Assembly (NCBI GenBank): GCA_964469525.1
Contig: CAYXYU010000002.1
Span: forward strand, 26,687 to 90,686
Reading direction: 5' to 3'
Source: an uncultured Rickettsiales bacterium
GTDB taxonomy: Bacteria > Pseudomonadota > Alphaproteobacteria > Rickettsiales > SXRF01
DNA: 64,000 nucleotides
Both the position numbers and the translations under genes were made by a program. Every line of letters starts with the position of its first letter. Position 1 is the stretch's first letter. Below the pieces are notes generated by a model, which saw only the letters and a program-made list of their open reading frames with translations, did not search any database and was not told the origin of the DNA. This document shows positions 734-29,537 of the stretch, piece after piece.

Positions 734-922
734 TCAAGCAAATACGAAATCGCTTTCGCTTAAAGAAGCCGTCTGGTCGCCTTCGATGTAGAATTCGAAA
801 CGGTAACCGTCGTCATCCTCAACGCGGTTATTGACATAGGTGCGGTCGGTGCCTGCGCTGTAGCTGACAGCGAGCGTGCCGAAGCGGAGGCAGGGAATAA
901 ATCCATGATAAAGAGCTTCACT
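734..922 (-). pseudogene. Orphan fragment resembling the C-terminal module of the neighbouring RTX epimerase
   Basis: The 62-aa ORF (MSEALYHG...LAVSYSAGTDRTYVNNRVEDDDGYRFEFYIEGDQTASLSESDFVFA) aligns by eye with LRLAYSATTDRTYVRSDQSDFEFYLQGDYRGQLSDADFLFT at the end of the 1036-2922 protein. It has no catalytic or RTX part. Confidence 0.4.
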
Positions 923-1035
923 CATCCGCACATTTACTCTCTTATTATAAAATCGCCGCCCCTCCCCAATAGAGAACAAACCCTCTTTGTCCTATCCGTT
1001 TCCTTGACTGAAACGCAACAGGCGAGGAGACGCTT

Positions 1036-2922
1036 ATGGCTGTGTATAACGTACTGAATTTCGGGGCGACGGCGGGCGACAACACGGATGACACGGCAGC
1101 GATCCAAGCGGCGATCGACGCGGCGCATGCCGCCGGCGGCGGCAGCGTCTATATTCCGACGGGCCTTTACCGGGTAAGCGGCGGCGAAGAGGCTTCCGAC
1201 GGCTGCATCATGCTGCGCGACAATGTGGAGGTGTTCGGCGACGGCATGGGCCATACGGTCCTCAAGCTGGTCGACGGCTCGGACCAGAAGATCACCGGCA
1301 TGATACGCACCGCCTATGGCGAAGAGAATGAGAATATCCAGCTGCGCGATCTTTCGATCGACGGCAACCGCGCCAATACGACCGGCAAGGTGGATGGTTT
1401 TTTCTGCGGCGTGAAACCGGGCGATACCGGCTCGGACCGGGATATCACTGTGTCGGGCGTGGAAGTGCGCAACATGTCTGGCTACGGGTTCGATCCTCAT
1501 GAGCGCACCACTAACCTAATCATTCGCGACTCTGTAGCCCACCATAATGGCCTGGACGGCTTCGTCGCCGATTTCCTGATCGACAGCCGGTTTGAGAATA
1601 ACGTTGCCTATAACAACGACCGGCACGGCTTCAATGTCTGCACCTCGACCAACAATTTCGTCATGACCGGCAACCAAGCCCATCATAACGGCGCGACCGG
1701 CCTGACTGTGCAGCGCGGCAGCGAAGATATTCCCTCACCGCATTCCCTCACCATCACCGATAACGTGTTTGCCTATAACGAGCGCGCCGGCGTCGAGCTG
1801 AAAATGTCCGACCACATTCTGCTCGAGGGGAACATAATCGCTCATAACGGACGCGAGGGGATCAAGATTTACGGATCGAGCAACGTAACGATAGAAGACA
1901 ATACGATCGAATCGAACTCCGAGTCCAAGCCGAATTATTACGCGGAGATACAGGCTCTGAACTATGACGACACCAACGGGCCGTCCGGCATGGTCTTCGA
2001 GGTGGAATCCATCCGGATTGAAGGCAACGACATCACGCAGGGGGATAATCACAGCAATCCCGCCTTCGACTTCGCCAACAACATCGAGAATGAAATCACG
2101 CTGGTGGATAATAATCTCGAAGGGTTCCCGAGCCAGGGACCGGTGACGCTGACCGGCACCAGCGGCAATGACACGCTGACCGGCGGGCCATTCGATGACG
2201 TGCTGGACGGCCGCGCCGGACGGGACAAGCTGACCGGCGGGGAAGGGGAGGATGAGTTCGTATTCTCGAATGCGACTCATTCTACGCACACCGCGCCGGA
2301 TGCTATTACCGATTTCACAGTGGGCGAGGACATCATCAATCTCAGCGGGCTCGGGTTCCATACGCTGGTCGGCGGCGGCACCACCGCGGCCGGTCAGCTG
2401 CGGCTGGCCTACAGCGCGACCTCGAACCGCACCTATGTGCGTTCCGACCAGTCGGACTTCGAGTTTTACCTGCAAGGGGACTACCGGGGCGTGCTTACCA
2501 ACGCGGATTTCAATTTCGGCTCATCCGGCCCCTCCAATGGTGCGATTAACGGCACCAGCGGCAACGACGTGCTGGTGGGAACCAGCGGCAACGATATCAT
2601 CGACGGGCTGGCGGGCAAGGATAAGCTCACCGGCGGGGCGGGCGACGATATTTTCCAATTCTCCAACCTGACCCATTCAACGCAGTTCTCTCCCGACGCC
2701 ATCACGGATTTCACTCCCGGGCAGGATCTGATCGATCTCAGCCTGCTCGAGGAGTTCACGCACTTGACCACAAACAGCCAAACGGCGGCAGGCGAGCTGC
2801 GCCTGGCTTACAGCGCTACGACCGACCGCACCTATGTGCGTTCCGACCAGTCGGACTTCGAGTTTTACCTGCAAGGGGATTACCGGGGCCAGTTGAGCGA
2901 CGCCGATTTCCTGTTCACCTAA
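1036..2922 (+). CDS. Secreted Ca2+-dependent mannuronan C-5 epimerase, Azotobacter AlgE type (one beta-helix A-like module plus two RTX modules)
   Basis: No signal peptide. The N-terminal ~380 aa closely recall the AlgE A-module (MAVYNV.NFGA..., DGSDQKITGM, SGYGFDPHE, NDRHGFNV). Two ~133-aa modules follow, each with GGxGxD nonapeptides (GTSGNDTLTGGPFDDVLDGRAGRDKLTGGEGEDEF; GTSGNDVLVGTSGNDIIDGLAGKDKLTGGAGDDIF). RBS GAGGAGA lies 5 nt before the ATG. Confidence 0.85.
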   Translation: MAVYNVLNFGATAGDNTDDTAAIQAAIDAAHAAGGGSVYIPTGLYRVSGGEEASDGCIMLRDNVEVFGDGMGHTVLKLVDGSDQKITGMIRTAYGEENENIQLRDLSIDGNRANTTGKVDGFFCGVKPGDTGSDRDITVSGVEVRNMSGYGFDPHERTTNLIIRDSVAHHNGLDGFVADFLIDSRFENNVAYNNDRHGFNVCTSTNNFVMTGNQAHHNGATGLTVQRGSEDIPSPHSLTITDNVFAYNERAGVELKMSDHILLEGNIIAHNGREGIKIYGSSNVTIEDNTIESNSESKPNYYAEIQALNYDDTNGPSGMVFEVESIRIEGNDITQGDNHSNPAFDFANNIENEITLVDNNLEGFPSQGPVTLTGTSGNDTLTGGPFDDVLDGRAGRDKLTGGEGEDEFVFSNATHSTHTAPDAITDFTVGEDIINLSGLGFHTLVGGGTTAAGQLRLAYSATSNRTYVRSDQSDFEFYLQGDYRGVLTNADFNFGSSGPSNGAINGTSGNDVLVGTSGNDIIDGLAGKDKLTGGAGDDIFQFSNLTHSTQFSPDAITDFTPGQDLIDLSLLEEFTHLTTNSQTAAGELRLAYSATTDRTYVRSDQSDFEFYLQGDYRGQLSDADFLFT

Positions 2923-2956
2923 CCCATACTCAAATTGATTATCCAAGGAGAATTCT

Positions 2957-4231
2957 ATGAAGAACGATACGCTCCATGATGTCTGCATGCTGGGGCTCGG
3001 CCCGGTGGGAACCGTATCCGGGCTGTGCTTTGCCAAGCAGGGATTCCGCGTGGTCGGGGTCGATATCAACCCCGAGCGCGTGGCGGCGTTTTCGCGTGGG
3101 CTAGCGCCTTTCGTCGAGCCGGGGGTCAACGACCTGCTGAAGGAATGCCTGGAGAAAAACTCTTTCACCGCGACCGATCGTGCGCAGGAGAGCATTGCGA
3201 ATGCCCGGCTGATTATGATCGCGGTCGGCACCCCGACGCCCGAGGAAACCGGCGTGCCGGACCTGTCGCAGCTGGAAAAGGTGGCCCACACCATCGGGGA
3301 GGCGATCGCGCAGGTGAAGCATGTTCCCATCGTGGTCGTGCGTTCGACGGTGCCGCCGGGGACGATGCGGAACCGCCTGGCGCCGATTATCGAGAAGGCT
3401 TCGGGCAAAAAGGCAGGCTGGGACTTCCATATCGCCTCCAATCCCGAATTCCTGCGCGAAGGCAGGGCAATCAAAGACTTTTTCCATACCGGCCGCGTCG
3501 TCATCGGCACCGATATCCCAGAGGCGGCGGACGCCATCGAGGCGCTATACCGTGACGTGGAGGGCAAGCGCAAGCGGGTGGCGATCGAGACGGCGGAATT
3601 CGCCAAATACGTCGATAATACCTGGCACGCGGTGAAGGTCACCTTCGCCAACGAGATCGCCCGCGTCTGCCAGAGTTTCGGCGGCAACCCGCAGGAAACG
3701 GCGGATGTGTTCCTGGCCGACGACCAGCTCAACATCTCCCCTTATTATCTGCGTCCCGGCTTTGCTTTCGGCGGCTCCTGCCTGCCCAAGGATACGCGCG
3801 GCATCCTGGCGCTGGCACGCCAGCACGGGGTGGAGGTGCCGATGATAGGCGGCGTACTCGATAGCAATGAAGAGCACATCGACCGCGGCGTTGCCAACGT
3901 GGAGAAACACCAGCCGGTCACGGTCGGGCTTCTGGGCTGCGCCTTCAAGGAGCATGTGGACGATCTGCGCGAAAGCCCGGCGCTGATGGTGGCGTCGAAG
4001 CTCCTTACCAATAACAGGAAGCTCATTGCCCACGATATGGCCTATATGGCTGGGGTGGAGCTGCCGCTGCCGCGCACGGATCGCAAGCTCCCCATCGCCG
4101 AACTGAACCGGGTGCTGAGCGATTCCGACGTGCTGGTGCTGATGCACGGGCTGCCGGAATACAAGCAGGCCTGTGCCAGCTCCGGCAAGCCGTATGTCGA
4201 TCTGACCACGGTGCCCGAGGCGGTGAATTAA
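2957..4231 (+). CDS. algD: GDP-mannose 6-dehydrogenase
   Basis: 424 aa with an N-terminal Rossmann segment GLGPVGTVSG and the GGSCLPKD catalytic-Cys context of the UDP-glucose/GDP-mannose dehydrogenase family. The alginate gene context supports the GDP-mannose assignment. Confidence 0.8.
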   Translation: MKNDTLHDVCMLGLGPVGTVSGLCFAKQGFRVVGVDINPERVAAFSRGLAPFVEPGVNDLLKECLEKNSFTATDRAQESIANARLIMIAVGTPTPEETGVPDLSQLEKVAHTIGEAIAQVKHVPIVVVRSTVPPGTMRNRLAPIIEKASGKKAGWDFHIASNPEFLREGRAIKDFFHTGRVVIGTDIPEAADAIEALYRDVEGKRKRVAIETAEFAKYVDNTWHAVKVTFANEIARVCQSFGGNPQETADVFLADDQLNISPYYLRPGFAFGGSCLPKDTRGILALARQHGVEVPMIGGVLDSNEEHIDRGVANVEKHQPVTVGLLGCAFKEHVDDLRESPALMVASKLLTNNRKLIAHDMAYMAGVELPLPRTDRKLPIAELNRVLSDSDVLVLMHGLPEYKQACASSGKPYVDLTTVPEAVN

Positions 4232-4252
4232 TTCCCAGGCCTGTAAGCGTAT

Positions 4253-4347: not shown

Positions 4348-4374
4348 GTTTGAGCTTCGCGATGACGGGGGCCC

Positions 4375-5679
4375 TCAGTGCTTGTAAGAAAGCGCGATGC
4401 CAATCACGTTGGCGCGGTAATCGGCGGCCGGATCGTTGGAATTGCGGTCCGTAAAGGTGTAATACAGGTTGGCTTCGACATCCTCATAGAACTCATAGGC
4501 GCTCCAGAGATGCAGCCCGTGCACATGGTCTTCCCGGCTGATGGTAGCCGATGAGGTGGTTTCAAAATCGTGGTTGGTATAGCTGTAGCCCGTGCCGAGC
4601 CGGAGCTGCTCGCTGTAATCATGTTCGTAATTGATGCGGGCGCGGGTGCGCAGATACGCCGAGTAATTATTGGAATAGGCATCGCGCACATCGCGCGCTA
4701 CCCGAACGCGCAGGCTGTTCATCGGGTCCATTTTCCATTCGGCGTCGGCATACAGATCCACTGCATCCACATCCGGCAGGCGCGCGGCCTCGTAATTTTG
4801 TTCCAGATGCCCGACCGCCACATCGTAGCGCAGGCCGGCGACCTGCTGCGGCTCGTTGCGGAACCCGACCAGGTAGCGATGCTGCGAGGAATCGCGGGTG
4901 GAGGCGGTACTCGAGTCGATACGGTTGTCGTGATCCCATTCCTCATGCGCGGTTTTCAGGTAAAGTTCATTATTCTGATGGAACCGGTACCCGACCAGCA
5001 TCGAGCCGCCATACTCAATGCGGTCGCGGTCGTCATGGATGTCGGTCCCGCCGGCCTGCATGCCGACATTCTCGTAATTGATGTTATGGGCGCCAAATGC
5101 CGCGTTGAAATGCAGCGGGACATCATTCGGCAGGTAATTCAGCGCCGCCTCTCCCAGAATGGTGTGGAACGGCGTGGGTTCGACGTTGCCCGTGCCGGGA
5201 TCGTCGACGAACGAGCCGATGCCCACATGGTCGAGGACATACCCACCCCGGGCTGACAGGGCAGCTTCGTTGCTGATATCGTAACGGCCCTGGGTAATGG
5301 CGCTGAAGTCCGTATAGTTATTTTCGCTATGGGAGAAATAGGTGCCGTTCTCGGCCTCGATTTCCAGACCCCAGGCATGCCGGTCGAGATTGCTCTGCAG
5401 CGCCAGGCGCGGTGAGAAATGGTTGATGATGTCGCTCTTTTCCCCCGTGGGTGAGCGGAAGATATTGTCGTTGAAGGAGAGGGAGTCCTCGGCGCCCACG
5501 ATCAGCTTGAGCGCAGCGAAATCCACCGGGTCGTATTTCTTTTCCTCGTACAGCTCCTCGATACAGGCCAGCTCATTGTCGCACAGATGCTCGACTTCGG
5601 CGGCATGGCTCGCGAGAGGCAGCCCTGCGCCGCATACTACCAACCCGACGCAGGCATAGGACTTATGATTGAACGGCAT
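4375..5679 (-). CDS. Outer-membrane beta-barrel protein, candidate polymer export porin (AlgE-position gene)
   Basis: It has a signal peptide (GLPLASHA/AE), alternating aromatic/polar strands throughout and a C-terminal beta-signal-like IGIALSYKH. It sits immediately downstream of the AlgK-like lipoprotein gene, as algK-algE do in Pseudomonas. Homology to AlgE itself was not verified. Confidence 0.55.
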   Translation of the reverse strand: MPFNHKSYACVGLVVCGAGLPLASHAAEVEHLCDNELACIEELYEEKKYDPVDFAALKLIVGAEDSLSFNDNIFRSPTGEKSDIINHFSPRLALQSNLDRHAWGLEIEAENGTYFSHSENNYTDFSAITQGRYDISNEAALSARGGYVLDHVGIGSFVDDPGTGNVEPTPFHTILGEAALNYLPNDVPLHFNAAFGAHNINYENVGMQAGGTDIHDDRDRIEYGGSMLVGYRFHQNNELYLKTAHEEWDHDNRIDSSTASTRDSSQHRYLVGFRNEPQQVAGLRYDVAVGHLEQNYEAARLPDVDAVDLYADAEWKMDPMNSLRVRVARDVRDAYSNNYSAYLRTRARINYEHDYSEQLRLGTGYSYTNHDFETTSSATISREDHVHGLHLWSAYEFYEDVEANLYYTFTDRNSNDPAADYRANVIGIALSYKH

Positions 5680-5703
5680 ATAGGCATCCTTTACGAGGTA
5701 TTA

Positions 5704-7479
5704 CTACTGCTCGGCAATAGTAATAGCATCGGATGCCAAATGGTAACCATTGTTTTTTGCCTGATTTAACCAATATTTCGCTTCCTGTAGGTTTTGCGCC
5801 ACACCTTTGCCGCTGGCGTACATGAGCCCCGTCTGGTACTGGCCTTCCACCTCGCCCGCTTCCGCCGCTTTCCGGTACCAGGCGAATACCTGCTGGTCCG
5901 TCTGCTCGCCGGCTCCGTTCACCGCCATTTCCCGCGCCTTATGCAGCATGGCTTTGCCGCTGCCCAGTTCGGCCGCGCGGGCCATCCACTGCCCGGCCTG
6001 CTCGGGTTGGGTATTTTTATAATACTGACCGAGCTCATAGGTGGCTTCCGCAGAACCATACCTAGCCGCCAGCCGCCACTGGCGGACAATCCGCTCCTTA
6101 TGCGCATCGCCCAGCTGGCTGGCATTCTCCGTAATGGCATCGAACAGCTTTTTTGGCTCCACCTGCCGGTAAATAGCCTGGTAAAGGTAATTTTCCTTAT
6201 CTTTCTCCTCCCAGCTATCCACCATCAGCATCGCATGCAGATTATGGTTCTGGTCAGCTAAAGCTTTGAAATGCTGATATGCTTTGTCTTTATCTGCACC
6301 GGCACTGAGCAGCATGGCGTAGCCCTTTTCCACTTCCGGGGTCATGGTGGCCAGCTGGCGCAACCGTTCGCGTTCGGCCTCGCGCAGCTGTTTCTCACGC
6401 TCTTTTTCCAGCCGGACGATCTGTTTCAACCGCTCCTCCTCCTGATACTGCCGCCAGGAGTTCCTGGCCTCCGGATTGCCGCGGGCGATGGCCTTGCCGT
6501 ACCAGCGTTCCATCAGTTCCGCATGGCCGGGCTGGTCCTTGGTGCGCTTGTAGATCTTGGCGAGGTGATAGGCCTGGCTGCCGTCGAGGTCGCCACCCTT
6601 TTCCCGCATGGCGAACCAGCGCAGCGCCTTTTCGTTATCCTCGGCATCATAAAAGGCTTTGCCCAGCGCTTCCATCGCCTGCAGGTTATTCCGCGCCGCC
6701 GCGGTCTGAAGCAGCGTCATGCCTTCATTATAGGACGGGGAATTAGCAGGCACGCCATGCATCAGCAGCTGAGCAAGCTCGACCGGCGCATCCTGGCGGT
6801 CGCCACGCTTGAGCGCCACGCTGTACCATTGCTTCGCGCTCCGTCCTGCTTCGGCATGCGCGGCTGCCGGGTGTAGATAAATGTCACGATAGATCCGTGC
6901 AATCTGCACGGCATCCCGTGCCGGGCTGTTGCTCCGGTAGTACATGCGTTCAGCAAGCCGGGCCGGAGGCAGCGCCTTGTCGAACTGTTCTTTCGCGATA
7001 TACAGTTTGGCCAGGTTGAGCGCCGCGTCGATCGATTCATACTGGTGGCGCAGGAGAATTTTCTCGGCCTTGTCGTAATCTCGCCGCGCCGGGCTCGCTT
7101 CCATATAGGCCTTGGCCAGCCGGACGGGCGAGCCGTCATAACCGGCCGCATAGGCCTGTTCCAGGTATTTCAGGGTTTCGTCGTGCCGTTCGTTGGCTTT
7201 CGCCAGCTGCGCCAGCTGGAAGGCGGCTTCCGATTTTACCTGACGATCGGGCGAGGCGTAGGCCTGCTCCAGCGCCTGCTCCGCCTGGTCATACTGCCGG
7301 TAATGACGCAGCCGCTGTCCTTCGATCAGTTGCTCGCTTCCTTCCTTGGCAATCAGCGTGTATTCACCGCAGGCAGAAAGTGAGAGCAGCGCGCACAAGC
7401 TGACGCAGCGCCACAGTTTCCCTTTTGCATTTTCTACCGGGGCAATCGTTTGCATCTTGCCAGCTCGCGCATGATTCAC
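5704..7479 (-). CDS. algK: Sel1/TPR-repeat outer-membrane lipoprotein, AlgK-like
   Basis: It has the lipobox LLSLSAC followed by many Sel1-type repeats (A..WY.KAA..G...A...LG..Y). It is paired with the barrel gene and divergent from alg8. Confidence 0.65.
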   Translation of the reverse strand: MNHARAGKMQTIAPVENAKGKLWRCVSLCALLSLSACGEYTLIAKEGSEQLIEGQRLRHYRQYDQAEQALEQAYASPDRQVKSEAAFQLAQLAKANERHDETLKYLEQAYAAGYDGSPVRLAKAYMEASPARRDYDKAEKILLRHQYESIDAALNLAKLYIAKEQFDKALPPARLAERMYYRSNSPARDAVQIARIYRDIYLHPAAAHAEAGRSAKQWYSVALKRGDRQDAPVELAQLLMHGVPANSPSYNEGMTLLQTAAARNNLQAMEALGKAFYDAEDNEKALRWFAMREKGGDLDGSQAYHLAKIYKRTKDQPGHAELMERWYGKAIARGNPEARNSWRQYQEEERLKQIVRLEKEREKQLREAERERLRQLATMTPEVEKGYAMLLSAGADKDKAYQHFKALADQNHNLHAMLMVDSWEEKDKENYLYQAIYRQVEPKKLFDAITENASQLGDAHKERIVRQWRLAARYGSAEATYELGQYYKNTQPEQAGQWMARAAELGSGKAMLHKAREMAVNGAGEQTDQQVFAWYRKAAEAGEVEGQYQTGLMYASGKGVAQNLQEAKYWLNQAKNNGYHLASDAITIAEQ

Positions 7480-9167: not shown

Positions 9168-9234
9168 AATAGCGGCCTCCTCGGACGCTGCACCATCAAA
9201 CATTACGCACGAGGCGGATGCGCAGCGGCAGTAT

Positions 9235-17710: not shown

Positions 17711-17960
17711 GTTAATTTCCTTCTTTTTACCGCCAACGCTTGATGCGCGAATTTCTGCGCGAACACAAATCATCCTTCTAAAATCGTTCGCGTTTATGAT
17801 GGTACGGCCGTGCCGTCATTAACAGTAAAGAAAATTTTTGCTTATAAAACAGTTGCAAAACCGCGACGCGTTACCTACCGTTGCAAAAAAACCACTTATA
17901 CAAAATTTATTTCCTGAACTAGGAAACCCTATCGCAATTTTATATGAGGATCATCGGAAA

Positions 17961-20284: not shown

Positions 20285-20317
20285 GCAGGCCCGGTCTTTC
20301 CGGGCCTGCTTTTTTTT
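20285..20317 (+). terminator. Rho-independent terminator after the PL7 lyase gene
   Basis: gcaggcccgg-tcttt-ccgggcctgc (10-bp GC stem) is followed by T8. It lies between convergent genes. Confidence 0.7.
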
Positions 20318-20324
20318 GCGCGTG

Positions 20325-21770: not shown

Positions 21771-22066
21771 ACTATGTCCTTTTCGTCATGGGGATGTGAG
21801 TCGGAGTGATGCCAGAATGCATCACCAGGATGATGTGAGGAGAAAATACCATCTGGTCTAAAGAATCCATTAGGTGGCCCGTGAACGAACATAAAAAAAC
21901 CGCGAGGGTGGCAGAGGAGAAATATAAATAACTGATTAGCATAAATATTTTTTATCCAATGCTTATAAATATCAGCCTTCACCAATCTAGAATCCCTATA
22001 CCCTGGTGGGTAGGTTGGGCGCCTAACCCTTCATTTGGGTGTAACCCTCTAGCGTTAGGATTACTT

Positions 22067-23628: not shown

Positions 23629-24900
23629 ATGGCCTATCTTTCTTCCGCATACCAGACGACATCAACTATTGGCCTGCCTCTGACGGTCGAAGGGCAGCAG
23701 GGCGCATTTGCCGAATTCGACTTCCAGCAGGCGGTCGAGGCGCTGCTGCAGCTGCATCGGGAACATTCGCCCTTGCTGCAGCTGCCGGAACGGATGGAGG
23801 ATCTGGAGGAAATGGACGCGCATGCGCTGCGGATCCGTCGTCAGTCCGACCGGCTGGTGCTGGTGGGGATCGGCGGGTCCAGCCTCGGCGCCAGGGCGCT
23901 GGCCTCCGTTGCCGACAAGGCCGACCCCCTGCGGTTTCACATTCTGGACAATCCCGATCCGACGAGCATTGACGCGCTGCTTGCGGATTGCGACCCGATG
24001 GGCACGTCGTGGCTGTTCGTGTCCAAATCGGGCGGCACTATCGAATCCCTGTCGCAGATCATCGTTATTCTGCAGCGACTGGAGCAGCATATCGGCCTGA
24101 ACGAAGTTGCGCAGCGTTGCGTGGCCATCACGGAACTGAAGGATTCGCCCCTGATCAGGCTGGCGGCGCATTACCGCATGCCGGTGCTGCAGCATGAGGA
24201 ACTGGGCGGCCGGTGGGCCTGTTTTTCCAATATCGGACTGCTGGCGGCCGCCTGCTGCGGCGTCGATATCCGCCAATGCCGTGCCGGAGCCAATGCTGTA
24301 GCCCAGCATGCGCTAGCGGCCGACATTGCCGATAACCAGATCCTGCAGGGGGCCCTGTTCGGCGCGTCGCAATATCGCGCCGGCCGTCATATCCACGTTA
24401 TGATGCCGTATGGCGACCGGCTCGATTTTGTTCCCTGGTATGCGCAGCTGGTCAGCGAATCGCTGGGCAAGGAGGGCAAGGGTATTACGCCGCTGACCGC
24501 GCGCGGTGCAGTGGACCAGCACAGCATGCTGCAGCTGATGCTGGACGGGCCGGACGATAAATTTTTCACCGTGGTCGCTGCACCGCATGCGGGGAAGGGG
24601 GCGCGTATCCACGGCGATCTTGCCCGGCTATGCGGGCTCGAGTATCTGGCGGACCAGCCGATCGGCAACGTGCTGGAGGCATTCCAGGAAGCCACCATCG
24701 GTTCCTTCAAGGCAGCCGGGCGTCCGGTGCGGGTGATACGCCTGCCGGAGATCGACGCCTACCATCTTGGCGCGCTGCTGATGTATTGCATGCTGGAGAC
24801 GCTCTACATGGCCGAGCTTCTGGAGGTGGATCCGTTTACCCAGCCGGCGGTGGAGGACAGCAAGGTGCGCGCGCAGTTCATTTTGCGGAATCCCCGGTAG
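23629..24900 (+). CDS. pgi: Glucose-6-phosphate isomerase (short form)
   Basis: It has the GIGGSSLG and FVSKSGGTIES motifs of the PGI/SIS family. Length is 423 aa. Confidence 0.8.
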   Translation: MAYLSSAYQTTSTIGLPLTVEGQQGAFAEFDFQQAVEALLQLHREHSPLLQLPERMEDLEEMDAHALRIRRQSDRLVLVGIGGSSLGARALASVADKADPLRFHILDNPDPTSIDALLADCDPMGTSWLFVSKSGGTIESLSQIIVILQRLEQHIGLNEVAQRCVAITELKDSPLIRLAAHYRMPVLQHEELGGRWACFSNIGLLAAACCGVDIRQCRAGANAVAQHALAADIADNQILQGALFGASQYRAGRHIHVMMPYGDRLDFVPWYAQLVSESLGKEGKGITPLTARGAVDQHSMLQLMLDGPDDKFFTVVAAPHAGKGARIHGDLARLCGLEYLADQPIGNVLEAFQEATIGSFKAAGRPVRVIRLPEIDAYHLGALLMYCMLETLYMAELLEVDPFTQPAVEDSKVRAQFILRNPR

Positions 24901-24946
24901 CAGAGCAGAGAAGAATCACCCACCGCCGGCAGGCGGGGAGGAATAT

Positions 24947-26404
24947 TCACTCCTCCCGGAAGGCGCGGTTGAAGCTGCGCGTCAACGGGTCGAACAGGTA
25001 GGAGATGAAGCTGCGCCTGCCGGTGATGATCAGCACCTCGACCGGCATGCCGGGATACAGCCGGATGCTGTCCGCCAGCTGCTGTAATTCGTCCTGGTCA
25101 ACGGTGACCCTCGCTACGTAATAATTGTGCCCGGTCTGCTCGTCGGTGAAGCGGTCAGGGGAGACATATTCCACTTCTCCTTCCAGCGGCGGAACGAAGC
25201 GGGCGCGAAAAGCGGACAACCGCACGTCGGCGGGCAGGCCCTTATGCACCACGTCGATATCCAGCGGCTGTACCTGCGCGTCGATCACCAGCCGATCCTC
25301 CTGCGGCACGATATCCATGATCGGCTCGCCGGGTGGGACGACGCCGCCGAGGGTGAAGAACTTCATGCCGGTCACAACGCCGGACTGCGGAGCCGTAATC
25401 AACACGCGCTCGAGCGTGTCCGTTGCGGCCTTGATCTTCTCCTCGGTCTCGGCGACCCGGTTCTGCGCTTCGCGCAGCTCATCAACCACGGTTTCCATGA
25501 ATTCATTGCGGATGGTGTGGATCTGCAGCTCATTCTCGATGATGCTCTGCCGGGCACGGGCGATGGCAGCGCGATACTCTCCCTGGCGGCCGAGCAGTTC
25601 GGTGTGCTGACGCTGCAGCGCCAGCAGACGCGGCTTCGGCGCGTAGCGTTTCTCCACCAGCTTTTCCACGGCGGTCATTTCCTCGGCAATCAAGCCGATC
25701 TGCTCAGTGGCGGCGGTGAGCTGCGCCTCCAATCCCTGAATCTCCTCTTCAAGCTGGGCGATGCGCTGCCGGATGATGTCGGTCTGCCCGGTGTTCTTCA
25801 GCTGGCGGGATTCGAACAGCTGAAGCTGCGTCTCCAGTATCTCCCCTAACTTGGGATAGGTTTTGGCCGCCCGCCGTATCTCTTCACTGAACGCGAGCTT
25901 TTCCTTGCCCGTCTGCTCGGTGAGTAGCCGTTCTTCAATCGCCTTGGCGGTGTAGAGCTGGTTCTGCAGTATCTCCTGCGACACCTCGGCGGTAGTCTTG
26001 CTCAGGCGCAGCAGGGGCTCGCCCGCCTTCACATAGTCGCCGTTGCGAACGAATATCTCCTCGATGATGCCGCCTTCCAGATGCTGGATGGTCTTCTTAT
26101 TGCTCGCCGGCACAATGACGCCGTGCGCGACAGCGGCGCTATGCAGCGGGGCCAGGAAAGACCAGATGAGGAATACCGCGAACATCGCCGATGCAGCCAG
26201 CGTGCCGACGCGGGCGATGGGGCGCACATAGCTGTAGGCGTCCCTTCCTTGCTTTCCGTGTCCGGCATGGAACTTGATAAGGCGGGTCGTCCACGCATCC
26301 AGCGTGGGTACCAGGCGGTCGGCGAACTGTCGGAAACGGGTTCGCATCTGCGCCACGAACAGCTGCAGGCGGATCAGGAGCGGGGATAGATCGAATTTCT
26401 TCAT
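24947..26404 (-). CDS. Type I secretion membrane fusion protein (HlyD family)
   Basis: It has an N-terminal TM, a long coiled coil (QLQLFESRQL...IQGLEAQL) and a C-terminal beta-barrel segment ending ISYLFDPL. It overlaps the ABC gene by 4 nt. Confidence 0.85.
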   Translation of the reverse strand: MKKFDLSPLLIRLQLFVAQMRTRFRQFADRLVPTLDAWTTRLIKFHAGHGKQGRDAYSYVRPIARVGTLAASAMFAVFLIWSFLAPLHSAAVAHGVIVPASNKKTIQHLEGGIIEEIFVRNGDYVKAGEPLLRLSKTTAEVSQEILQNQLYTAKAIEERLLTEQTGKEKLAFSEEIRRAAKTYPKLGEILETQLQLFESRQLKNTGQTDIIRQRIAQLEEEIQGLEAQLTAATEQIGLIAEEMTAVEKLVEKRYAPKPRLLALQRQHTELLGRQGEYRAAIARARQSIIENELQIHTIRNEFMETVVDELREAQNRVAETEEKIKAATDTLERVLITAPQSGVVTGMKFFTLGGVVPPGEPIMDIVPQEDRLVIDAQVQPLDIDVVHKGLPADVRLSAFRARFVPPLEGEVEYVSPDRFTDEQTGHNYYVARVTVDQDELQQLADSIRLYPGMPVEVLIITGRRSFISYLFDPLTRSFNRAFREE

Positions 26405-28125
26405 ACGGCGGTCTGCAATACGCGTGACGATGTTTTAGCGGTTAACTGGCTGATGATATCCTGTGCCGGGCCGAAATTGACCATCATCCCCTCCTTCAAT
26501 ATGAGGATACGATCGATTGAAGTAAGGAGCCGCGGGCGGTGGCTGATCACTGCCAGCGTGGAGCCTGCCTGCCTGGCCTGCACCAAGGCACGGATCAGCG
26601 CTTCTTCCCCTTCATTATCCAGGTTGGCGTTGGGCTCATCGAGCACGATGAGCCGGGGCGAATGCAGGAAGGCGCGCGCCAGCCCGATGCGCTGGCGTTG
26701 TCCGGCGGACAGGAGCGTCCCGCTTGGCCCAATCACCGTCTCATATCCCTGGGGCAAGCGCAGGATCAGTTCATGCACCCCCGCCACTTTCGCCGCTTCG
26801 ATTACCGCTTCGTCAGAGACATTCGGCTGCATGCGGGCAATGTTGTCGCGCACCGTGCCTTCAAACAGCCCGACGTCCTGTGGCATATAGCCGATATAGC
26901 GGCCAATCTGCTGCCGATCCCATTGCGTGACGTCGGCGCCATCGAGCCGCACATGTCCGAGGGTAGGGGCCATAATGCCGACCATCAGCCTGCCCAGAGT
27001 CGATTTGCCGGCGGCGCTTGGCCCGATAATGCCGAGGCTCTCGCCCGGCCGCAGATGGAAATTGATGTTGCGCAGGATCGTCAGTTGCTTGCTGCGAATC
27101 AGATAGCTGACATTCTCGACGTGGAGGAATCCCTTGGGTTCCGGCAACAGGATGGTATCCGCCGGTAGCGGCGCCTGCGCGAATTGTTTTTGCAGCCGGT
27201 CGAACGCATCGCGGGCGCCCTCCACCGCGGACCAGATGCCGATGGACTGCTCGAAAGGGGCGAGGGCGCGCGCCGAGAGAATGGAGGCGGCGATGATGCC
27301 GCCGACCGTTGCTTCGTTGGCCAGTGCCAGCCAGCCGCCGCCGCCGATGATGCCGAGCTGCAGCAGCATGCGCACGACACGGCTGATTGACAGGATGACA
27401 GCGGAACGGCTACTTGCTGTTGATTGCAGTGCAAGGGAGGGCTGGTTCTGGGCTATCCAGCGGCGGATGAAATCCTTCTCCATGCCCATGGCCTTGAGGG
27501 TGTCCACGTGATGGGCGGCCTGCTCCAGCTTCTGCAGGCTGATGTTGCTCTCCCGGCTGGCCTGCGTCAAGCTTTCATGGATCGCCAGCTGGTTGATGTA
27601 GGTCAGTGCCAGCAGGGTCAGACCGCCAACCAGCAGCAGCAAACCCAGATATACATGAATAAAGAAGACCGCGACGATAAACAGCAACGCCCAAGGTGCA
27701 TCGAGCAGGCTGACGATGCCGCTGCCGGAGAGGAACTGGCGGATTTTGGCCAGATCGCGGCTGTTCTGGCTGCCGCTCAATCCGGGAGACGTGACAGCGT
27801 TCTCCAGGGAATTGTGTACCACCAGCGGCGTCAGCGTCACATCCACCCATTCGCCGAGCCGTGTCAGAATCAACGAGCGGATGGTGCTGAACAACCCGAG
27901 AAACAGAAAAGCGACGGCAGCCAACAGGGTAAGGAAGAACAGGGTTTCCAGACTATGGCTGGACAGCACCCGGTCGAACACCTGCAAGGAATAGATCGGG
28001 AGCATCAGCATCAACAGGTTATAAATGAGGCTGAAACCGACCAGGCTTAAAAAGACCCGGCGGCACTCCACAATCGCTGCTTCCAACGGGTCGGCAGCCT
28101 TGCCATGCACAAACAGTTTATACAT
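26401..28125 (-). CDS. Type I secretion ABC transporter permease/ATPase (PrtD/AprD type, no C39 domain)
   Basis: 574 aa with a 6-TM region. Walker A is GPSAAGKST, the signature is LSAGQRQR and Walker B is LIVLDEPNANLD. Confidence 0.85.
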   Translation of the reverse strand: MYKLFVHGKAADPLEAAIVECRRVFLSLVGFSLIYNLLMLMLPIYSLQVFDRVLSSHSLETLFFLTLLAAVAFLFLGLFSTIRSLILTRLGEWVDVTLTPLVVHNSLENAVTSPGLSGSQNSRDLAKIRQFLSGSGIVSLLDAPWALLFIVAVFFIHVYLGLLLLVGGLTLLALTYINQLAIHESLTQASRESNISLQKLEQAAHHVDTLKAMGMEKDFIRRWIAQNQPSLALQSTASSRSAVILSISRVVRMLLQLGIIGGGGWLALANEATVGGIIAASILSARALAPFEQSIGIWSAVEGARDAFDRLQKQFAQAPLPADTILLPEPKGFLHVENVSYLIRSKQLTILRNINFHLRPGESLGIIGPSAAGKSTLGRLMVGIMAPTLGHVRLDGADVTQWDRQQIGRYIGYMPQDVGLFEGTVRDNIARMQPNVSDEAVIEAAKVAGVHELILRLPQGYETVIGPSGTLLSAGQRQRIGLARAFLHSPRLIVLDEPNANLDNEGEEALIRALVQARQAGSTLAVISHRPRLLTSIDRILILKEGMMVNFGPAQDIISQLTAKTSSRVLQTAV

Positions 28126-28214
28126 GGCGAAAAGCTAAGCAGGTCTTCCGTCAAAATTCTGTAGGGAACTATCTAATGGAAAAATGATGCGGGCTATGGG
28201 CATACCACGGGTCT

Positions 28215-29537
28215 ATGGTGACGATAGCCCGGATCGGATGTTTTTATCCGTTACTTATGGCAACGGTGGCCTTCAGCATGGCGTTGCCATCCTCTTCCTT
28301 ATCGGCCCGTCTGGATGAACCGTTTACAATCAGCGATGCGATTCACCGCGCCCTGGCGACCAATCCCCGGATCAAGCGGCAGGCGCAGGTGGTAAAGCAG
28401 GCCCGGGAGGAGGTGGACGTTGCCTTCAGCGAGTTTCTTCCGCATGTCGACTATAGCTATCAGCAGGGTCGCAACCGTACCCGGACATCCACCCAGCGCT
28501 GGGCCGACCTGACACAGCGGGTCCGGGAGCTTAGGGTAGAACAGCCCCTGTTCCGCGGAGGCAGCAGCGTAGCTGGCCTGGAAAGGGCGGAAATACTGCT
28601 TGCGGCCAGCAAATCCTCGTATCTTACGGCCGAACAGCTGGTGCTGTCGGAAGCCGCCAGCGCCTATATCCGGCTGTATACGTTGCGCCAGATCATGCAT
28701 TCCATCAAAAAAAACCGCGCTGCACTTCGCGGCCAGCTGGAACTGACCAGCTCCCGTTATGAACTGCAGGACGTCACCGTTACTGATCTGGCGCAGGCCA
28801 AAGCCAGGCTGGCGCTAGCCGAAGCCGACTATGAAAATACCATGGAACAGCTGAAGCAGAGCGCCGCCATGTTCCGCCGCGTCATCGGCGTGCCGCCGCC
28901 GGAGGAGCTTGCTGAGCCCGTCCTTATCCAGCCGCTGCCCGATACCGAGGAAGAACTGCTTATGATGCTCGACGCGCGCAACCCGCGCATGCGGCAGGCA
29001 AAACTGGAAGAGCAGGCTGCCGAGGAAGGAGCCGATTCAGCGCGCGGTGCGCTGTTGCCTCGGGTGTCGCTGATTGGAACGAGCCGGCGCTCCAAGGGTG
29101 AGCGCTTCATCACCGGATTCGATGAGTTCGATGAAGATGCGCTGATGGTGAACGTCACCATCCCTATTTATCAGGGCGGGGCCAACTGGGCACGCTGGCA
29201 GGCCGCCCGTTACGCCGCCGAAGAAGCTAAATATGCCGCGCTCGATATCGACCGTGAAATCCGGGAAGAGGCTATCCTCAGCTGGGAAGCGTACCAGGCG
29301 GCGGAGCTGATTCACGAGGCGAATACCCAGGCGGCGGCGGCGGCGGAAAATGCGCTGGAAGGCATGCGTGAGGAATATAATTACGGGCAGCGCACGCTGA
29401 CCGACGTGCTTGACGCCGAGCGCGAGCTGCTGCGCGCCGAGGTAGAACTGGCGCGTTCGGAGGAGCAACGCATGAGCAGCGCCTATGAGCTGCTGGCGCT
29501 GCTCAATGCCATCAAACCGCAGATCCCGCCGCCCTAA
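28215..29537 (+). CDS. TolC-family outer membrane factor
   Basis: It has two repeated halves with long helical segments and the typical N-terminal LDEPFTISDAIHRALATNPRIK. An alternative start is ATG 28257 (MATVAFSMALPSSSLSA signal). Confidence 0.8.
   Translation: MVTIARIGCFYPLLMATVAFSMALPSSSLSARLDEPFTISDAIHRALATNPRIKRQAQVVKQAREEVDVAFSEFLPHVDYSYQQGRNRTRTSTQRWADLTQRVRELRVEQPLFRGGSSVAGLERAEILLAASKSSYLTAEQLVLSEAASAYIRLYTLRQIMHSIKKNRAALRGQLELTSSRYELQDVTVTDLAQAKARLALAEADYENTMEQLKQSAAMFRRVIGVPPPEELAEPVLIQPLPDTEEELLMMLDARNPRMRQAKLEEQAAEEGADSARGALLPRVSLIGTSRRSKGERFITGFDEFDEDALMVNVTIPIYQGGANWARWQAARYAAEEAKYAALDIDREIREEAILSWEAYQAAELIHEANTQAAAAAENALEGMREEYNYGQRTLTDVLDAERELLRAEVELARSEEQRMSSAYELLALLNAIKPQIPPP

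What the first reader, a model, noticed from the sequence alone, without database searches (positions are those of the whole stretch)
734..29537. Self-contained, rearranged alginate-type locus with extracellular remodelling enzymes and its own T1SS
Seen in sequence: one 29-kb block encodes Pgi, AlgC-like PMM, AlgA-like PMI/GMP and AlgD-like dehydrogenase. It also encodes Alg8, Alg44 (PilZ), an AlgK-like lipoprotein with a barrel, AlgG and AlgL. An AlgE-type secreted epimerase, an RTX-PL7 lyase and a HlyD/ABC/TolC set are included. Established knowledge: in Pseudomonas and Azotobacter the core operon is algD-8-44-K-E-G-X-L-I-J-F-A. In those organisms algC, the secreted epimerases and their exporter lie elsewhere. 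Here the genes are split over at least five transcription units on both strands. No AlgX and no AlgI/J/F O-acetylation genes are recognisable anywhere in the 64 kb, and three Sel1-repeat proteins are present. Inference: this is a variant pathway making non-acetylated polymannuronate/alginate that is edited outside the cell. The flanking genes do not resemble Pseudomonas alg-locus flanks, but taxonomy cannot be decided from this window.
Basis: partly seen in the sequence, partly recalled or inferred. Interest (0 to 1): 0.7.

Follow-up and report, generated by a model that had tools for sequence, protein, structure and literature searches.

The report
Alphaproteobacterial alginate-type polysaccharide gene cluster
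This 29-kb block from an uncultured alphaproteobacterium carries nearly everything needed to make, export and remodel outside the cell an alginate-like polymer, in an uncharacterised layout that lacks the acetylation genes found in its closest relatives.

Summary
All 17 genes are present at the stated coordinates and profile searches confirm their assignments.

They encode:
- the GDP-mannuronate precursor enzymes (PGI-like, PgmG-type PMM, GMP/PMI, and a dehydrogenase closest to P. aeruginosa AlgD);
- Alg8-like and Alg44-like proteins, an AlgG domain and a PL5 AlgL-like lyase;
- an AlgE-type A+R+R epimerase (E 8e-120 to AlgE4) and a PL7-RTX lyase;
- a complete PrtD/HlyD/TolC type I secretion system.

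- AlgG is the C-terminal half of a 1021-aa protein. Its N-terminal half is a helical-repeat solenoid.
- The outer-membrane barrel is a separate gene of the BBP2_2/EpsL type, not the AlgE porin family.
- The RxxxR motif of the Alg44 PilZ domain lies upstream of any canonical start codon.

No AlgX, AlgI, AlgJ or AlgF sequence occurs in any frame of the 64 kb, or in about 5 kb further to the right.

The locus is not unique. Alg8-like clusters of this family occur in 351 species-representative genomes, and the best 80 are all Alphaproteobacteria, including cultured Microvirga, Rhizobium and Sphingobium. Nearly all related loci of the same clade carry ALGX-MBOAT-ALGX after the Sel1 gene. Only the window and its closest relative lack it.

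Verdict: a new variant of a known kind, of moderate interest. The product is inferred, not shown.

The parts
1036..2922 (+). Secreted AlgE-type mannuronan C5-epimerase. It has one A-module (aa 1-375) and two RTX R-modules, and no signal peptide.
   Evidence: PDB AlgE4 A-module 2pyg, E 7.8e-120 over aa 4-375. AlgE4 and AlgE6 R-modules, E 1e-17 to 1e-13. Pfam Pect-lyase_RHGA_epim, HemolysinCabind and Peptidase_M10_C. The YGFDPHE active-site motif is visible in the sequence.
2957..4231 (+). GDP-mannose 6-dehydrogenase (AlgD-like).
   Evidence: The best PDB match is P. aeruginosa AlgD 1mfz, E 2e-87, 297 bits. The best UDP-glucose dehydrogenase scores 204 bits. All three UDPG_MGDP_dh Pfam domains are present.
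4375..5679 (-). Outer-membrane beta-barrel with a signal peptide; the candidate polymer export pore. It is not of the AlgE porin family.
   Evidence: Pfam BBP2_2 (PF10082), E 1e-49, over almost the whole model. Weak NCBIfam EpsL hit. No PDB hit as a single sequence or as a 20-sequence profile. It is conserved next to the Sel1 lipoprotein in 20 related loci.
5704..7479 (-). Sel1-repeat lipoprotein (lipobox LSAC), a functional analogue of AlgK. The likely start is ATG 7455.
   Evidence: Sel1 repeats match PDB Sel1 proteins down to E 7e-26, but not AlgK itself. The lipobox is seen in the translation. It is always paired with the barrel, divergent from alg8.
7605..9167 (+). Alg8-like family-2 glycosyltransferase, the putative mannuronan synthase.
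   Evidence: Pfam Glyco_tranf_2_3. More than 3700 homologues. Those 53-71% identical are named 'glycosyltransferase Alg8' or 'mannuronan synthase' by JGI. The DGD and GDDK motifs are invariant in a 17-sequence alignment.
9169..10242 (+). Alg44-like co-polymerase: PilZ domain, TM helix and a membrane-fusion (HlyD-like) domain. The start codon is unresolved (ATA 9169, ATT 9199 or GTG 9235).
   Evidence: PDB Alg44 PilZ 4rt0, E 8.9e-8. PF25964 BSH_ALG44 on the identical Logan gene. HlyD_3. RxxxR (RQYVR) and DxSxxG (DWSVRG) are both in frame.
10217..13282 (+). Fusion protein of 1021 aa. It has an N-terminal hydrophobic segment, an all-alpha TPR-like solenoid of about 400 aa, a linker, and an AlgG-type periplasmic mannuronan C5-epimerase beta-helix (aa about 540-920, DPHD motif).
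   Evidence: NCBIfam AlgG, 285 bits over aa 505-916. PDB AlgG 4nk6, E 5e-63. AF2 model: pLDDT 80-95 for aa 45-430, and AlgG TM-score 0.80. The fusion is conserved in about 60 related loci. The short and long forms of the N-domain are homologous (hhalign E 5e-42).
13279..14388 (+). Periplasmic PL5 alginate lyase (AlgL-like) with a signal peptide. The start overlaps the stop of the preceding gene.
   Evidence: Pfam Alginate_lyase, E 3e-22. NCBIfam polysaccharide and mannuronate lyase models hit below their cut-offs. The NNHRY motif is visible in the sequence.
14385..15311 (+). Periplasmic Sel1-repeat protein of 308 aa, a putative scaffold.
   Evidence: Pfam Sel1, E 4e-19. Weak hit to the NCBIfam AlgK model (37 bits). 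It is conserved after AlgL in the related loci.
15308..17710 (+). Periplasmic TPR/Sel1 protein of 800 aa, a putative scaffold. It directly follows Sel1-308, at the point where most related loci carry ALGX-MBOAT-ALGX.
   Evidence: Pfam Sel1 and TPR hits. Synteny table. The L002 homologue is also a Sel1 protein.
17838..20267 (+). Secreted PL7 alginate lyase fused to RTX modules (AlyA3-like). It contains a 540-nt tandem duplication. The real start may be ATG 17961.
   Evidence: Pfam Alginate_lyase2, E 1.5e-57, and HemolysinCabind. PDB PL7 lyases at about E 1e-28, and AlgE6 R-modules at E 1e-9. The duplication is at 18718-19017 and 19258-19557, 98% identical.
20285..20309 (+). Strong intrinsic terminator hairpin (10-bp stem with 9 GC pairs, followed by T8). 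It closes the alg8-to-PL7 operon and lies between convergent genes.
20325..21770 (-). Phosphomannomutase/phosphoglucomutase (plays the AlgC role).
   Evidence: NCBIfam PgmG equivalog, 615 bits, above the 600-bit cut-off. All four PGM_PMM Pfam domains are present.
21959..23554 (+). Bifunctional mannose-1-phosphate guanylyltransferase / mannose-6-phosphate isomerase (AlgA-like).
   Evidence: NCBIfam TIGR01479 GMP_PMI, 592 bits, above the 373-bit cut-off.
23629..24900 (+). Short-type glucose-6-phosphate isomerase.
   Evidence: Pfam PGI, E 1.6e-19. NCBIfam PGI models up to 220 bits, all below their equivalog cut-offs.
24947..28125 (-). Inner-membrane part of the type I secretion system: PrtD-type ABC permease/ATPase (26401-28125) and HlyD adaptor (24947-26404).
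   Evidence: TIGR01842, 650 bits (cut-off 510). TIGR01843, 423 bits (cut-off 209).
28215..29537 (+). TolC-family outer-membrane duct of the type I secretion system.
   Evidence: TIGR01844, 244 bits (cut-off 225). Pfam OEP, E 2e-58.

Best explanation
The block is a synthase-dependent polysaccharide system of the alginate type, in the layout typical of Alphaproteobacteria.

Steps shown by homology:
- PGI, PMI/GMP, PMM and a GDP-mannose dehydrogenase supply GDP-mannuronate.
- An Alg8-like glycosyltransferase, working with an Alg44-like PilZ/membrane-fusion partner, polymerises it across the inner membrane.
- The periplasm holds an AlgG-type epimerase and a PL5 lyase.
- An AlgE-type epimerase and a PL7 lyase both carry RTX modules and have no signal peptide. 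A complete PrtD/HlyD/TolC exporter is encoded alongside them.

Steps inferred:
- The helical N-domain fused to AlgG, together with the two soluble Sel1/TPR proteins, forms the periplasmic scaffold. In Pseudomonas this scaffold needs AlgK and AlgX.
- The Sel1 lipoprotein and the BBP2_2 barrel replace AlgK and AlgE as the outer-membrane exit.
- The chain leaves the cell as largely non-acetylated polymannuronate with few G residues. This follows from the absence of AlgI/J/F/X-type genes.
- Outside the cell the T1SS-secreted epimerase introduces G residues and the secreted lyase trims the chains, as AlgE1-7 and AlyA3 do in Azotobacter vinelandii.
- Polymerisation is probably gated by c-di-GMP through the Alg44 PilZ domain. 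This depends on translation starting upstream of GTG 9235.
For: - Precursor enzymes: GMP_PMI and PgmG score above the curated NCBIfam cut-offs. The dehydrogenase is closest to AlgD (297 bits, against 204 bits for the best UDP-glucose dehydrogenase).
- Synthase pair: homologues of the Alg8-like protein are named Alg8 or mannuronan synthase by JGI. The Alg44 PilZ matches PDB 4rt0, and BSH_ALG44 hits the identical Logan gene.
- Four independent alginate-specific enzyme families are present: AlgG (E 5e-63, fold TM-score 0.80), AlgE4 A-module (E 8e-120), PL5 and PL7.
- All three T1SS components score above their cut-offs. The only RTX proteins found in the Pfam scans of the window's large ORFs are the epimerase and the lyase.
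- alg44 through the 800-aa TPR gene overlap one another end to end. alg8 precedes alg44 by 67 nt or less, depending on the unresolved alg44 start. PL7-RTX follows the TPR gene after a 127-nt gap, and a strong terminator follows PL7.
- No acetylation or AlgX genes occur in any frame. Sister loci carry them in the cluster.
- The closest relative L002 (Alg8 77% identical) also lacks them, which suggests the acetylation-free layout is not a recent decay.
- The AlgG fusion and the barrel + lipoprotein pair are conserved across many genomes.
Against: - No chemistry is available. The product is inferred from homology alone.
- Alg8 could not be compared directly with Pseudomonas Alg8. There is no NCBIfam hit and no PDB relative.
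- Only 64 (+5) kb of a 292-kb contig were visible, so acetylation genes or an AlgX could lie elsewhere in the genome.
- In P. aeruginosa AlgX is required for polymer to be recovered (established knowledge). An AlgX-free system therefore needs a different scaffold, and that scaffold is assumed, not shown.
- The export role of the barrel rests on gene context. It shows no sequence similarity to AlgE, and the single-sequence AF2 model failed.
- Alg44 has no canonical start codon upstream of its RxxxR motif. c-di-GMP control, or even function, could be impaired.
- T1SS genes are not found next to the cluster in any relative within 10 kb on either side. The pairing of the T1SS with these two substrates therefore rests on adjacency in this one genome.
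Confidence: 0.62

Rival explanations
1. The machinery and polymer are as described, but the alginate is O-acetylated by AlgI/AlgJ/AlgX-type genes located elsewhere in the genome. The locus would then be an ordinary acetylated-alginate system with dispersed genes.
For: Acetylation genes are the rule in this family. ALGX-domain genes, usually with MBOAT, occur in about 16 of 17 same-clade loci that have enough downstream sequence. AlgF also occurs in Sphingobium, Asticcacaulis and Loktanella loci. Only 64 (+5) kb of the 292-kb contig could be read. Gene positions do vary: L007, L008, L023 and L024 place ALGX or MBOAT upstream of the cluster.
Against: Wherever the module is present in relatives it lies within the cluster. 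Here the Sel1-308 stop overlaps the start of the TPR-800 gene, leaving no remnant. The same clean absence is shared with L002 at 77% Alg8 identity. Many Microvirga-type loci also lack the module within 10 kb on either side.
Confidence: 0.18
2. The locus is decaying or switched off. Alg44 has lost its start codon, and with it normal c-di-GMP binding. Little or no polymer is made, and the secreted lyase and epimerase act on alginate made by other organisms.
For: No ATG, GTG or TTG precedes the RxxxR motif, whereas about 50 homologues have an ATG there. A gene caller placed the start at ATG 9286, which loses RxxxR. The PL5 and PL7 lyases, with a T1SS, could serve to feed on foreign alginate.
Against: All 17 ORFs are intact. 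The 12 codons upstream of GTG 9235 differ from L002 by 6 synonymous and 2 non-synonymous changes, which indicates a translated, selected segment. The same sequence was assembled independently and is reported in 4 samples. No alginate-uptake or catabolic genes (for example oligoalginate lyase or KdgF-type genes) appeared in the Pfam scans of the window.
Confidence: 0.1
3. The synthase makes a related but different polyuronide, not a mannuronan. The lyase and epimerase homologues would then have shifted specificity.
For: Alg8 matches no curated equivalog model and has no solved relative. The AlgG, AlgL and PGI matches fall below the NCBIfam equivalog cut-offs. One PL7 relative in the PDB is a glucuronan lyase. 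No member of this alphaproteobacterial family has a characterised product in the literature searched.
Against: A full GDP-mannose to GDP-mannuronate route is encoded in the cluster, and the dehydrogenase is closest to AlgD. The A-module matches AlgE4 at E 8e-120 with its active-site motif intact. Four separate alginate-specific families co-occur.
Confidence: 0.1

Closest known systems
Pseudomonas aeruginosa / P. syringae algD operon (algD-8-44-K-E-G-X-L-I-J-F-A, plus algC)
   Same: - Same precursor route (AlgA-, AlgC- and AlgD-like enzymes).
- An Alg8-like synthase next to an Alg44-like PilZ/MFP protein.
- An AlgG-type epimerase domain with DPHD.
- A PL5 AlgL-like lyase.
- A repeat lipoprotein plus an outer-membrane barrel for export.
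   Different: - No AlgX and no AlgI/J/F.
- The barrel belongs to the BBP2_2/EpsL family, not the AlgE porin family.
- The lipoprotein is a generic Sel1 protein with no detectable AlgK match.
- AlgG is fused to a 500-aa helical N-domain.
- Two additional periplasmic Sel1/TPR proteins are present.
- The genes are spread over at least 7 strand-defined units.
- The PMM and PGI genes lie in the cluster.
Azotobacter vinelandii alginate system (alg operon, AlgE1-7 epimerases, AlyA3 lyase, EexDEF T1SS)
   Same: - A secreted A+R-module epimerase very close to AlgE4 (E 8e-120).
- A PL7 lyase fused to R-like RTX modules, as in AlyA3.
- A type I secretion system, the export route used for AlgE1-7 (PMC12350332, PMC4444821).
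   Different: - In A. vinelandii the epimerase cluster, algC, AlyA1-3 and eexDEF lie away from the alg operon (PMC12350332). Here they all sit within 29 kb.
- There is a single epimerase gene instead of seven.
- No acetylation genes are present.
- The host is an alphaproteobacterium.
Uncharacterised alphaproteobacterial alg-like clusters (Microvirga, Rhizobium chromids, Sphingobium, Asticcacaulis, Loktanella plasmids; 'atypical alginate operons' of Bundalovic-Torma et al. 2020, PMC7112194)
   Same: - The Alg8-Alg44 pair.
- The N-domain-AlgG fusion.
- AlgL and downstream Sel1/TPR proteins.
- Frequent adjacent PL7 genes (21 loci) and occasional AlgE A-module genes (7 loci).
   Different: - Most same-clade loci carry ALGX-MBOAT-ALGX, which the window lacks.
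- Microvirga-type loci follow the order GMD-Alg8-Alg44-GMP and have no BBP2_2 barrel.
- No relative shows T1SS genes within 10 kb on either side.
- The window's left flank (AlgE + GMD) is not syntenic even with its closest relative L002.

Membership tests
Canonical alginate (alg) biosynthesis system | Enzymes for GDP-mannuronate: PMI/GMP (AlgA), PMM (AlgC) and GDP-mannose dehydrogenase (AlgD). | tested here: met
   TIGR01479 scores 592 bits (cut-off 373). PgmG scores 615 bits (cut-off 600). The dehydrogenase's best PDB hit is AlgD 1mfz, E 2e-87.
Canonical alginate (alg) biosynthesis system | An Alg8 family-2 glycosyltransferase adjacent to an Alg44 protein (PilZ + membrane-fusion domain). | tested here: met
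   GT2 Pfam hit, with homologues named Alg8 or mannuronan synthase by JGI. Alg44 PilZ matches PDB 4rt0 at E 9e-8, with BSH_ALG44 and HlyD_3 hits. Caveats: no direct comparison with Pseudomonas Alg8 was possible, and the Alg44 start codon is unresolved.
Canonical alginate (alg) biosynthesis system | AlgK TPR lipoprotein plus AlgE 18-stranded porin (Alginate_exp family). | tested here: not met
   The barrel hits BBP2_2/EpsL and not AlgE. Neither the sequence nor a profile matches the PDB. The lipoprotein matches generic Sel1 proteins, not AlgK. It is a functional analogue by gene context only.
Canonical alginate (alg) biosynthesis system | Periplasmic AlgG epimerase (right-handed beta-helix, DPHD motif). 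| tested here: met
   NCBIfam AlgG scores 285 bits, below the 700-bit equivalog cut-off. PDB 4nk6 matches at E 5e-63. DPHD is invariant. Foldseek TM-score 0.80. It is present only as a domain of a fusion protein.
Canonical alginate (alg) biosynthesis system | AlgL PL5 periplasmic lyase. | tested here: met
   Pfam Alginate_lyase scores 79.8 bits (cut-off 22.2). The NCBIfam lyase models hit below their cut-offs.
Canonical alginate (alg) biosynthesis system | AlgX (SGNH + CBM) scaffold and acetyltransferase. | tested here: not met
   No PF16822 hit in the window ORFs. tblastn with 37 ALGX proteins from relatives gave nothing. The rest of the genome was not visible.
Canonical alginate (alg) biosynthesis system | AlgI (MBOAT), AlgJ and AlgF O-acetylation genes. 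| tested here: not met
   Same searches. The positive control worked: these families were found in related loci.
Canonical alginate (alg) biosynthesis system | The product is beta-1,4-mannuronate/guluronate polymer. | not testable with these tools
   This needs NMR or compositional analysis of the EPS.
AlgE-type secreted mannuronan C5-epimerases | An A-module with the YG(F/I)DPH(D/E) active site, followed by RTX R-modules, with no signal peptide. | tested here: met
   2pyg matches at E 8e-120 over aa 4-375. R-modules 2agm and 2ml1-3 match at E 1e-17 to 1e-13. The YGFDPHE motif is seen in the sequence.
AlgE-type secreted mannuronan C5-epimerases | Export by a dedicated type I secretion system, and epimerase activity on polyM. 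| not testable with these tools
   The T1SS is adjacent and complete, but secretion and activity need experiment.
Type I secretion system (PrtD/HlyD/TolC) | ABC permease/ATPase, HlyD adaptor and TolC duct. | tested here: met
   TIGR01842 scores 650, TIGR01843 scores 423 and TIGR01844 scores 244 bits. All are above their curated cut-offs.
PL7 alginate lyase with R-modules (AlyA3-like) | A PL7 catalytic domain with the R(x)ELR, QIH and YFKAG motifs, plus RTX modules. | tested here: met
   Alginate_lyase2 hits at E 1.5e-57 over the full model. PDB PL7 lyases match at E 1e-28, and AlgE6 R-modules at E 1e-9. The motifs RCELR, QIH and YFKAG are seen in the sequence.
Alphaproteobacterial alg-like cluster family (uncharacterised) | Alg8-Alg44, followed by a helical N-domain fused to AlgG, then AlgL and Sel1 proteins. 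| tested here: met
   Synteny across 80 loci. N-domain homology: hhalign probability 100%, E 5e-42.

The most novel reading that the evidence does not exclude
The locus encodes an alginate pathway that works without AlgX and without acetylation. An AlgG epimerase fused to a helical-repeat N-domain that begins with a hydrophobic, possibly membrane-anchoring, segment takes over the periplasmic scaffold role, together with the Sel1 proteins. An EpsL-type barrel replaces the AlgE porin. The bare polymannuronate is then converted to a gel-forming alginate outside the cell by a co-encoded T1SS-secreted epimerase and lyase. This would be Azotobacter-style extracellular tailoring in an uncultured, Micavibrio-related alphaproteobacterium. 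It would imply that true alginate production is widespread in Alphaproteobacteria, including cultured Microvirga, Rhizobium and Sphingobium.
Probability: 0.35. Interest if true: 0.6.

Novelty: new variant of a known kind. Interest (0 to 1): 0.45.

Why it matters
Bacterial alginate biology rests almost entirely on Pseudomonas and Azotobacter. This locus belongs to a large family of alg-like clusters in Alphaproteobacteria that public annotation mostly labels 'glycosyltransferase' or 'hypothetical protein'. The literature searches run here found no characterised product for any member.

If the family makes alginate, three things would follow:
- The producer range would widen to common soil, rhizosphere and aquatic bacteria.
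- It would give a natural test of which parts of the Pseudomonas machinery (AlgX, AlgK/AlgE, acetylation) are dispensable.
- It would offer a compact gene set for acetyl-free alginate that is epimerised after export, which is of biotechnological interest.

Cultured relatives with similar clusters make the question directly testable.

Tried and rejected
- Word-indexed protein searches failed for the AlgG fusion. The N-domain query returned nothing and the full-length query returned only itself. No deep alignment could therefore be built that way. The exhaustive HMMER search found only 10 cluster representatives for the N-domain.
The single-sequence model was useless, with pLDDT 30. Strand number and pore features remain unknown.
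- PDB sequence and profile searches found nothing informative for Alg8, the barrel or the N-domain.
- hhalign of the barrel against the TPR-barrel proteins of Caulobacterales loci was inconclusive (probability 41%).
- Attempts to extend the sequence beyond the window gained only about 5 kb on the right. The left side could not be extended.
- Rfam found no RNA family in the window.
- The sigma-70 promoter scan was no better than chance.
- Literature searches for alginate clusters or production in Alphaproteobacteria, Microvirga or Dinoroseobacter gave only catalogue-level mentions.
- Rejected: the idea that the 800-aa TPR protein replaced the acetylation module. TPR-800-like proteins co-occur with ALGX in L007 and L008, so the module is simply absent.
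- Rejected: a catabolic alginate-utilisation locus, because the synthase, its co-polymerase and the full precursor route are present.

Full report
**1. What is in the sequence**

ORF listing and profile searches give 17 contiguous genes between 1036 and 29537.

Left arm:
- 1036-2922 (+): a beta-helix protein with RTX repeats.
- 2957-4231 (+): a nucleotide-sugar dehydrogenase.
- 4375-5679 (-): a BBP2_2 beta-barrel.
- 5704-7479 (-): a Sel1 protein with a lipobox (LSAC).

Central unit, 7605-20267 (+):
- a family-2 glycosyltransferase;
- an Alg44-like protein;
- a 1021-aa protein with an AlgG domain;
- a PL5 lyase;
- a 308-aa Sel1 protein;
- an 800-aa TPR/Sel1 protein;
- a PL7-RTX protein.

From alg44 to the TPR gene the genes overlap one another end to end. 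alg8 precedes alg44 by at most 67 nt, and PL7-RTX follows the TPR gene after 127 nt. A strong terminator at 20285-20309 closes the unit.

Right arm:
- PgmG-type PMM (-);
- GMP/PMI and a PGI-like gene (+);
- HlyD and a PrtD-type ABC transporter (-);
- TolC (+).

The remainder of the window holds PhaC, BrkB, Usp, AsmA, several histidine kinases, a FadB-like protein, CFA synthase and small stress proteins. It contains nothing related to polysaccharide synthesis.

**2. How solid each assignment is**

- GMP/PMI, PgmG and all three T1SS components score above the curated NCBIfam cut-offs.
- The dehydrogenase is closest to P. aeruginosa AlgD (297 bits), ahead of the best UDP-glucose dehydrogenase (204 bits).
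- The 628-aa protein aligns with the AlgE4 A-module at E 8e-120. Two R-modules follow it.
- The AlgG region (aa about 540-920) matches P. syringae AlgG at E 5e-63 and keeps DPHD. The AF2 model superposes on AlgG with a TM-score of 0.80.
- The PL7 domain matches solved PL7 lyases at about E 1e-28, and its RTX modules resemble AlgE R-modules.
- The glycosyltransferase has no curated model and no solved relative. It has more than 3700 homologues, and JGI calls those 53-71% identical 'Alg8' or 'mannuronan synthase'.
- Its neighbour matches the crystallised PilZ domain of Alg44 (E 9e-8) and carries the Alg44 barrel-sandwich domain.
- The PGI, AlgL and AlgG matches fall below the equivalog cut-offs. 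These are divergent family members, not orthologues by NCBI's standard.

**3.

(a) AlgG is a fusion. Residues 45-430 of the 1021-aa protein form a confidently predicted all-helical solenoid (pLDDT 80-95). It is preceded by a hydrophobic segment, and only generic TPR-like folds resemble it. It has no PDB or Pfam match. An exhaustive search of 1.84 billion representative proteins found only 10 related clusters, almost all of them fusions about 1000 aa long.

(b) The barrel is a separate gene of the BBP2_2/EpsL type. It shows no similarity to AlgE, even as a 20-sequence profile. The adjacent lipoprotein is a generic Sel1 protein. 'AlgK/AlgE-like' is therefore an analogy from gene context, not family membership.

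(c) The Alg44 start is anomalous. About 50 homologues start with ATG a few codons before a conserved VHEAExQRQHVRVxLPA motif, which holds the PilZ RxxxR. In the window the motif is in frame, but no ATG, GTG or TTG precedes it. The first such codon, GTG 9235, lies inside RxxxR. The 12 upstream codons differ from the closest relative by 6 synonymous and 2 non-synonymous changes. The segment therefore appears to be translated, perhaps from ATT 9199 or ATA 9169.

**4. Absence of AlgX/I/J/F**

Pfam found no ALGX, MBOAT or AlgF domain in any large ORF of the window. A tblastn of 75 such proteins, taken from related alphaproteobacterial loci, against all six frames gave a best E of 0.028. A Logan contig extends about 5 kb beyond the right end of the window and carries only unrelated genes. 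The rest of the 292-kb source contig could not be retrieved.

**5. Relatives**

A scan of species-representative genomes found 351 relatives of the Alg8-like protein. The best 80 are all Alphaproteobacteria.
- The closest (58-77% identity) are uncultured MAGs labelled Rickettsiales bacterium, Alphaproteobacteria bacterium, Micavibrio or Pseudobdellovibrionaceae. The last is the NCBI family that holds Micavibrio.
- At about 50% identity come cultured Microvirga, Rhizobium, Sphingobium, Asticcacaulis, Phenylobacterium, Zavarzinia and Albidovulum.
- Rhizobium chromids and Roseobacter-group plasmids also carry the gene. There PGAP annotates the cluster mostly as 'glycosyltransferase', 'hypothetical protein', 'right-handed parallel beta-helix repeat-containing protein', 'MBOAT family protein', 'AlgF' and 'alginate lyase family protein'.

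Synteny analysis gives four results:
- The N-domain-AlgG fusion is present in about 60 loci. The short (about 500 aa) and long (about 770 aa) N-domains are homologous (hhalign E 5e-42).
- The barrel + Sel1 lipoprotein pair, divergent from alg8, marks the MAG clade (20 loci).
- In that clade ALGX-domain genes, most with MBOAT, lie next to the cluster, usually straight after Sel1-308. Pfam confirmed these families, and AlgF in other clades. Only the window and its closest relative L002 go directly from Sel1-308 to the TPR protein and PL7-RTX.
- PL7 genes adjoin the cluster in 21 loci and AlgE A-module genes in 7. T1SS genes adjoin it in none within 10 kb on either side.

L002's left flank is dnaN/recF. 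The window's packaging of precursor genes, secreted enzymes and T1SS around the core is therefore specific to this genome as far as can be seen.

**6. Mechanism**

Shown by homology:
- a complete route from hexose phosphate to GDP-mannuronate;
- an Alg8/Alg44-type synthase;
- a periplasmic epimerase and a periplasmic lyase;
- two RTX enzymes specific for alginate;
- a complete T1SS.

Inferred:
- The AlgG N-domain and the Sel1/TPR proteins substitute for the AlgK/AlgX scaffold.
- The lipoprotein and barrel form the exit pore.
- The polymer is not acetylated.
- The secreted epimerase and lyase tailor it outside the cell. AlgE1-7 and AlyA3, exported by EexDEF, do this in A. vinelandii, where those genes lie away from the alg operon (PMC12350332; PMC4444821).

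**7. What is known**

Bundalovic-Torma et al. 2020 (PMC7112194) catalogued 64 alginate operons, mostly in Pseudomonas. They noted 'atypical' operons in environmental bacteria that have lost algKE or algGXLIJF. Their tables list an Alg8 in the alphaproteobacterium Dinoroseobacter shibae. Ertesvag 2015 remarks that putative alginate clusters occur in many other genomes. I found no paper characterising the product or the machinery of any alphaproteobacterial cluster.

**8. Verdict**

The finding is real and its interpretation is largely right. The system is a variant of a known kind and a member of a widespread but unstudied alphaproteobacterial lineage. Its distinctive points are the AlgG fusion, the non-AlgE barrel, the clean absence of acetylation/AlgX genes (shared only with its closest relative), and the co-location of secreted tailoring enzymes with a T1SS.

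Interest is moderate (0.45). The product is unproven, the family has been noticed before at catalogue level, and the acetylation status depends on genome sequence I could not see.

Noticed in passing
window 9088-9286: The Alg44-like gene has no ATG, GTG or TTG upstream of its conserved PilZ RxxxR motif, although the motif is in frame. Its upstream codons differ from the closest relative by 6 synonymous and 2 non-synonymous changes, a sign of protein-level selection. A non-canonical start (ATT 9199, or ATA 9169 two bases after the alg8 stop) or reinitiation is likely. The same sequence occurs in an independent Logan assembly.
   Followed up: partly
window 18718-19781: There is a 540-nt (180-aa) tandem duplication inside the PL7-RTX lyase gene. 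Its core 300 nt are 98% identical between the copies. This is a recent duplication of an RTX/R-like module with its proline-rich linker.
   Followed up: partly
window 41818-47640: This 1940-aa hybrid histidine kinase has an array of about nine HAMP domains. They are encoded by 8.8 copies of a 276-nt repeat at 42354-44787. GAF, HisKA/HATPase and two receiver domains follow. A second hybrid kinase sits at 47651-49285.
   Followed up: no
loci L004-L006, L009-L011, L015-L019, L021, L028, L032 (e.g. L004:14291-17989): Related MAG loci carry ALGX-domain, MBOAT and ALGX-domain genes directly after the Sel1-308 homologue. This is the point where the window has the TPR-800 gene. These loci show no AlgF, whereas Sphingobium, Asticcacaulis and Loktanella loci do.
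   Followed up: yes
about 60 related loci (e.g. L046:14125-17910, L077:12771-16511): In nearly all alphaproteobacterial alg-like clusters the AlgG epimerase domain is fused to a fast-evolving helical-repeat N-domain of 500-800 aa. A few proteins reach about 1600 aa. PGAP labels one AlgG-region gene only as 'right-handed parallel beta-helix repeat-containing protein'.
   Followed up: partly
Microvirga-type loci (e.g. L060:3003-4529): A dCache-GGDEF diguanylate cyclase and an SLT transglycosylase are conserved a few kb upstream of the GMD-Alg8-Alg44 genes in 15 Microvirga loci. No outer-membrane barrel gene is evident there. The window has no GGDEF or EAL gene.
   Followed up: no
window 20285-20309: A 10-bp GC-rich hairpin followed by T8 lies between the convergent PL7-RTX and PMM genes. 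It is the strongest terminator-like site in the region.
   Followed up: no
window 29702-30388 and L083:5650-6279: Two BOF (bacterial OB-fold) proteins are encoded, one just right of the cluster and one about 3 kb beyond the right end of the window. Many small stress-type genes (CsbD, YflT, Gly-zipper, DUF1328, HSP20, Usp) sit in the right half of the window and just beyond its right end.
   Followed up: no
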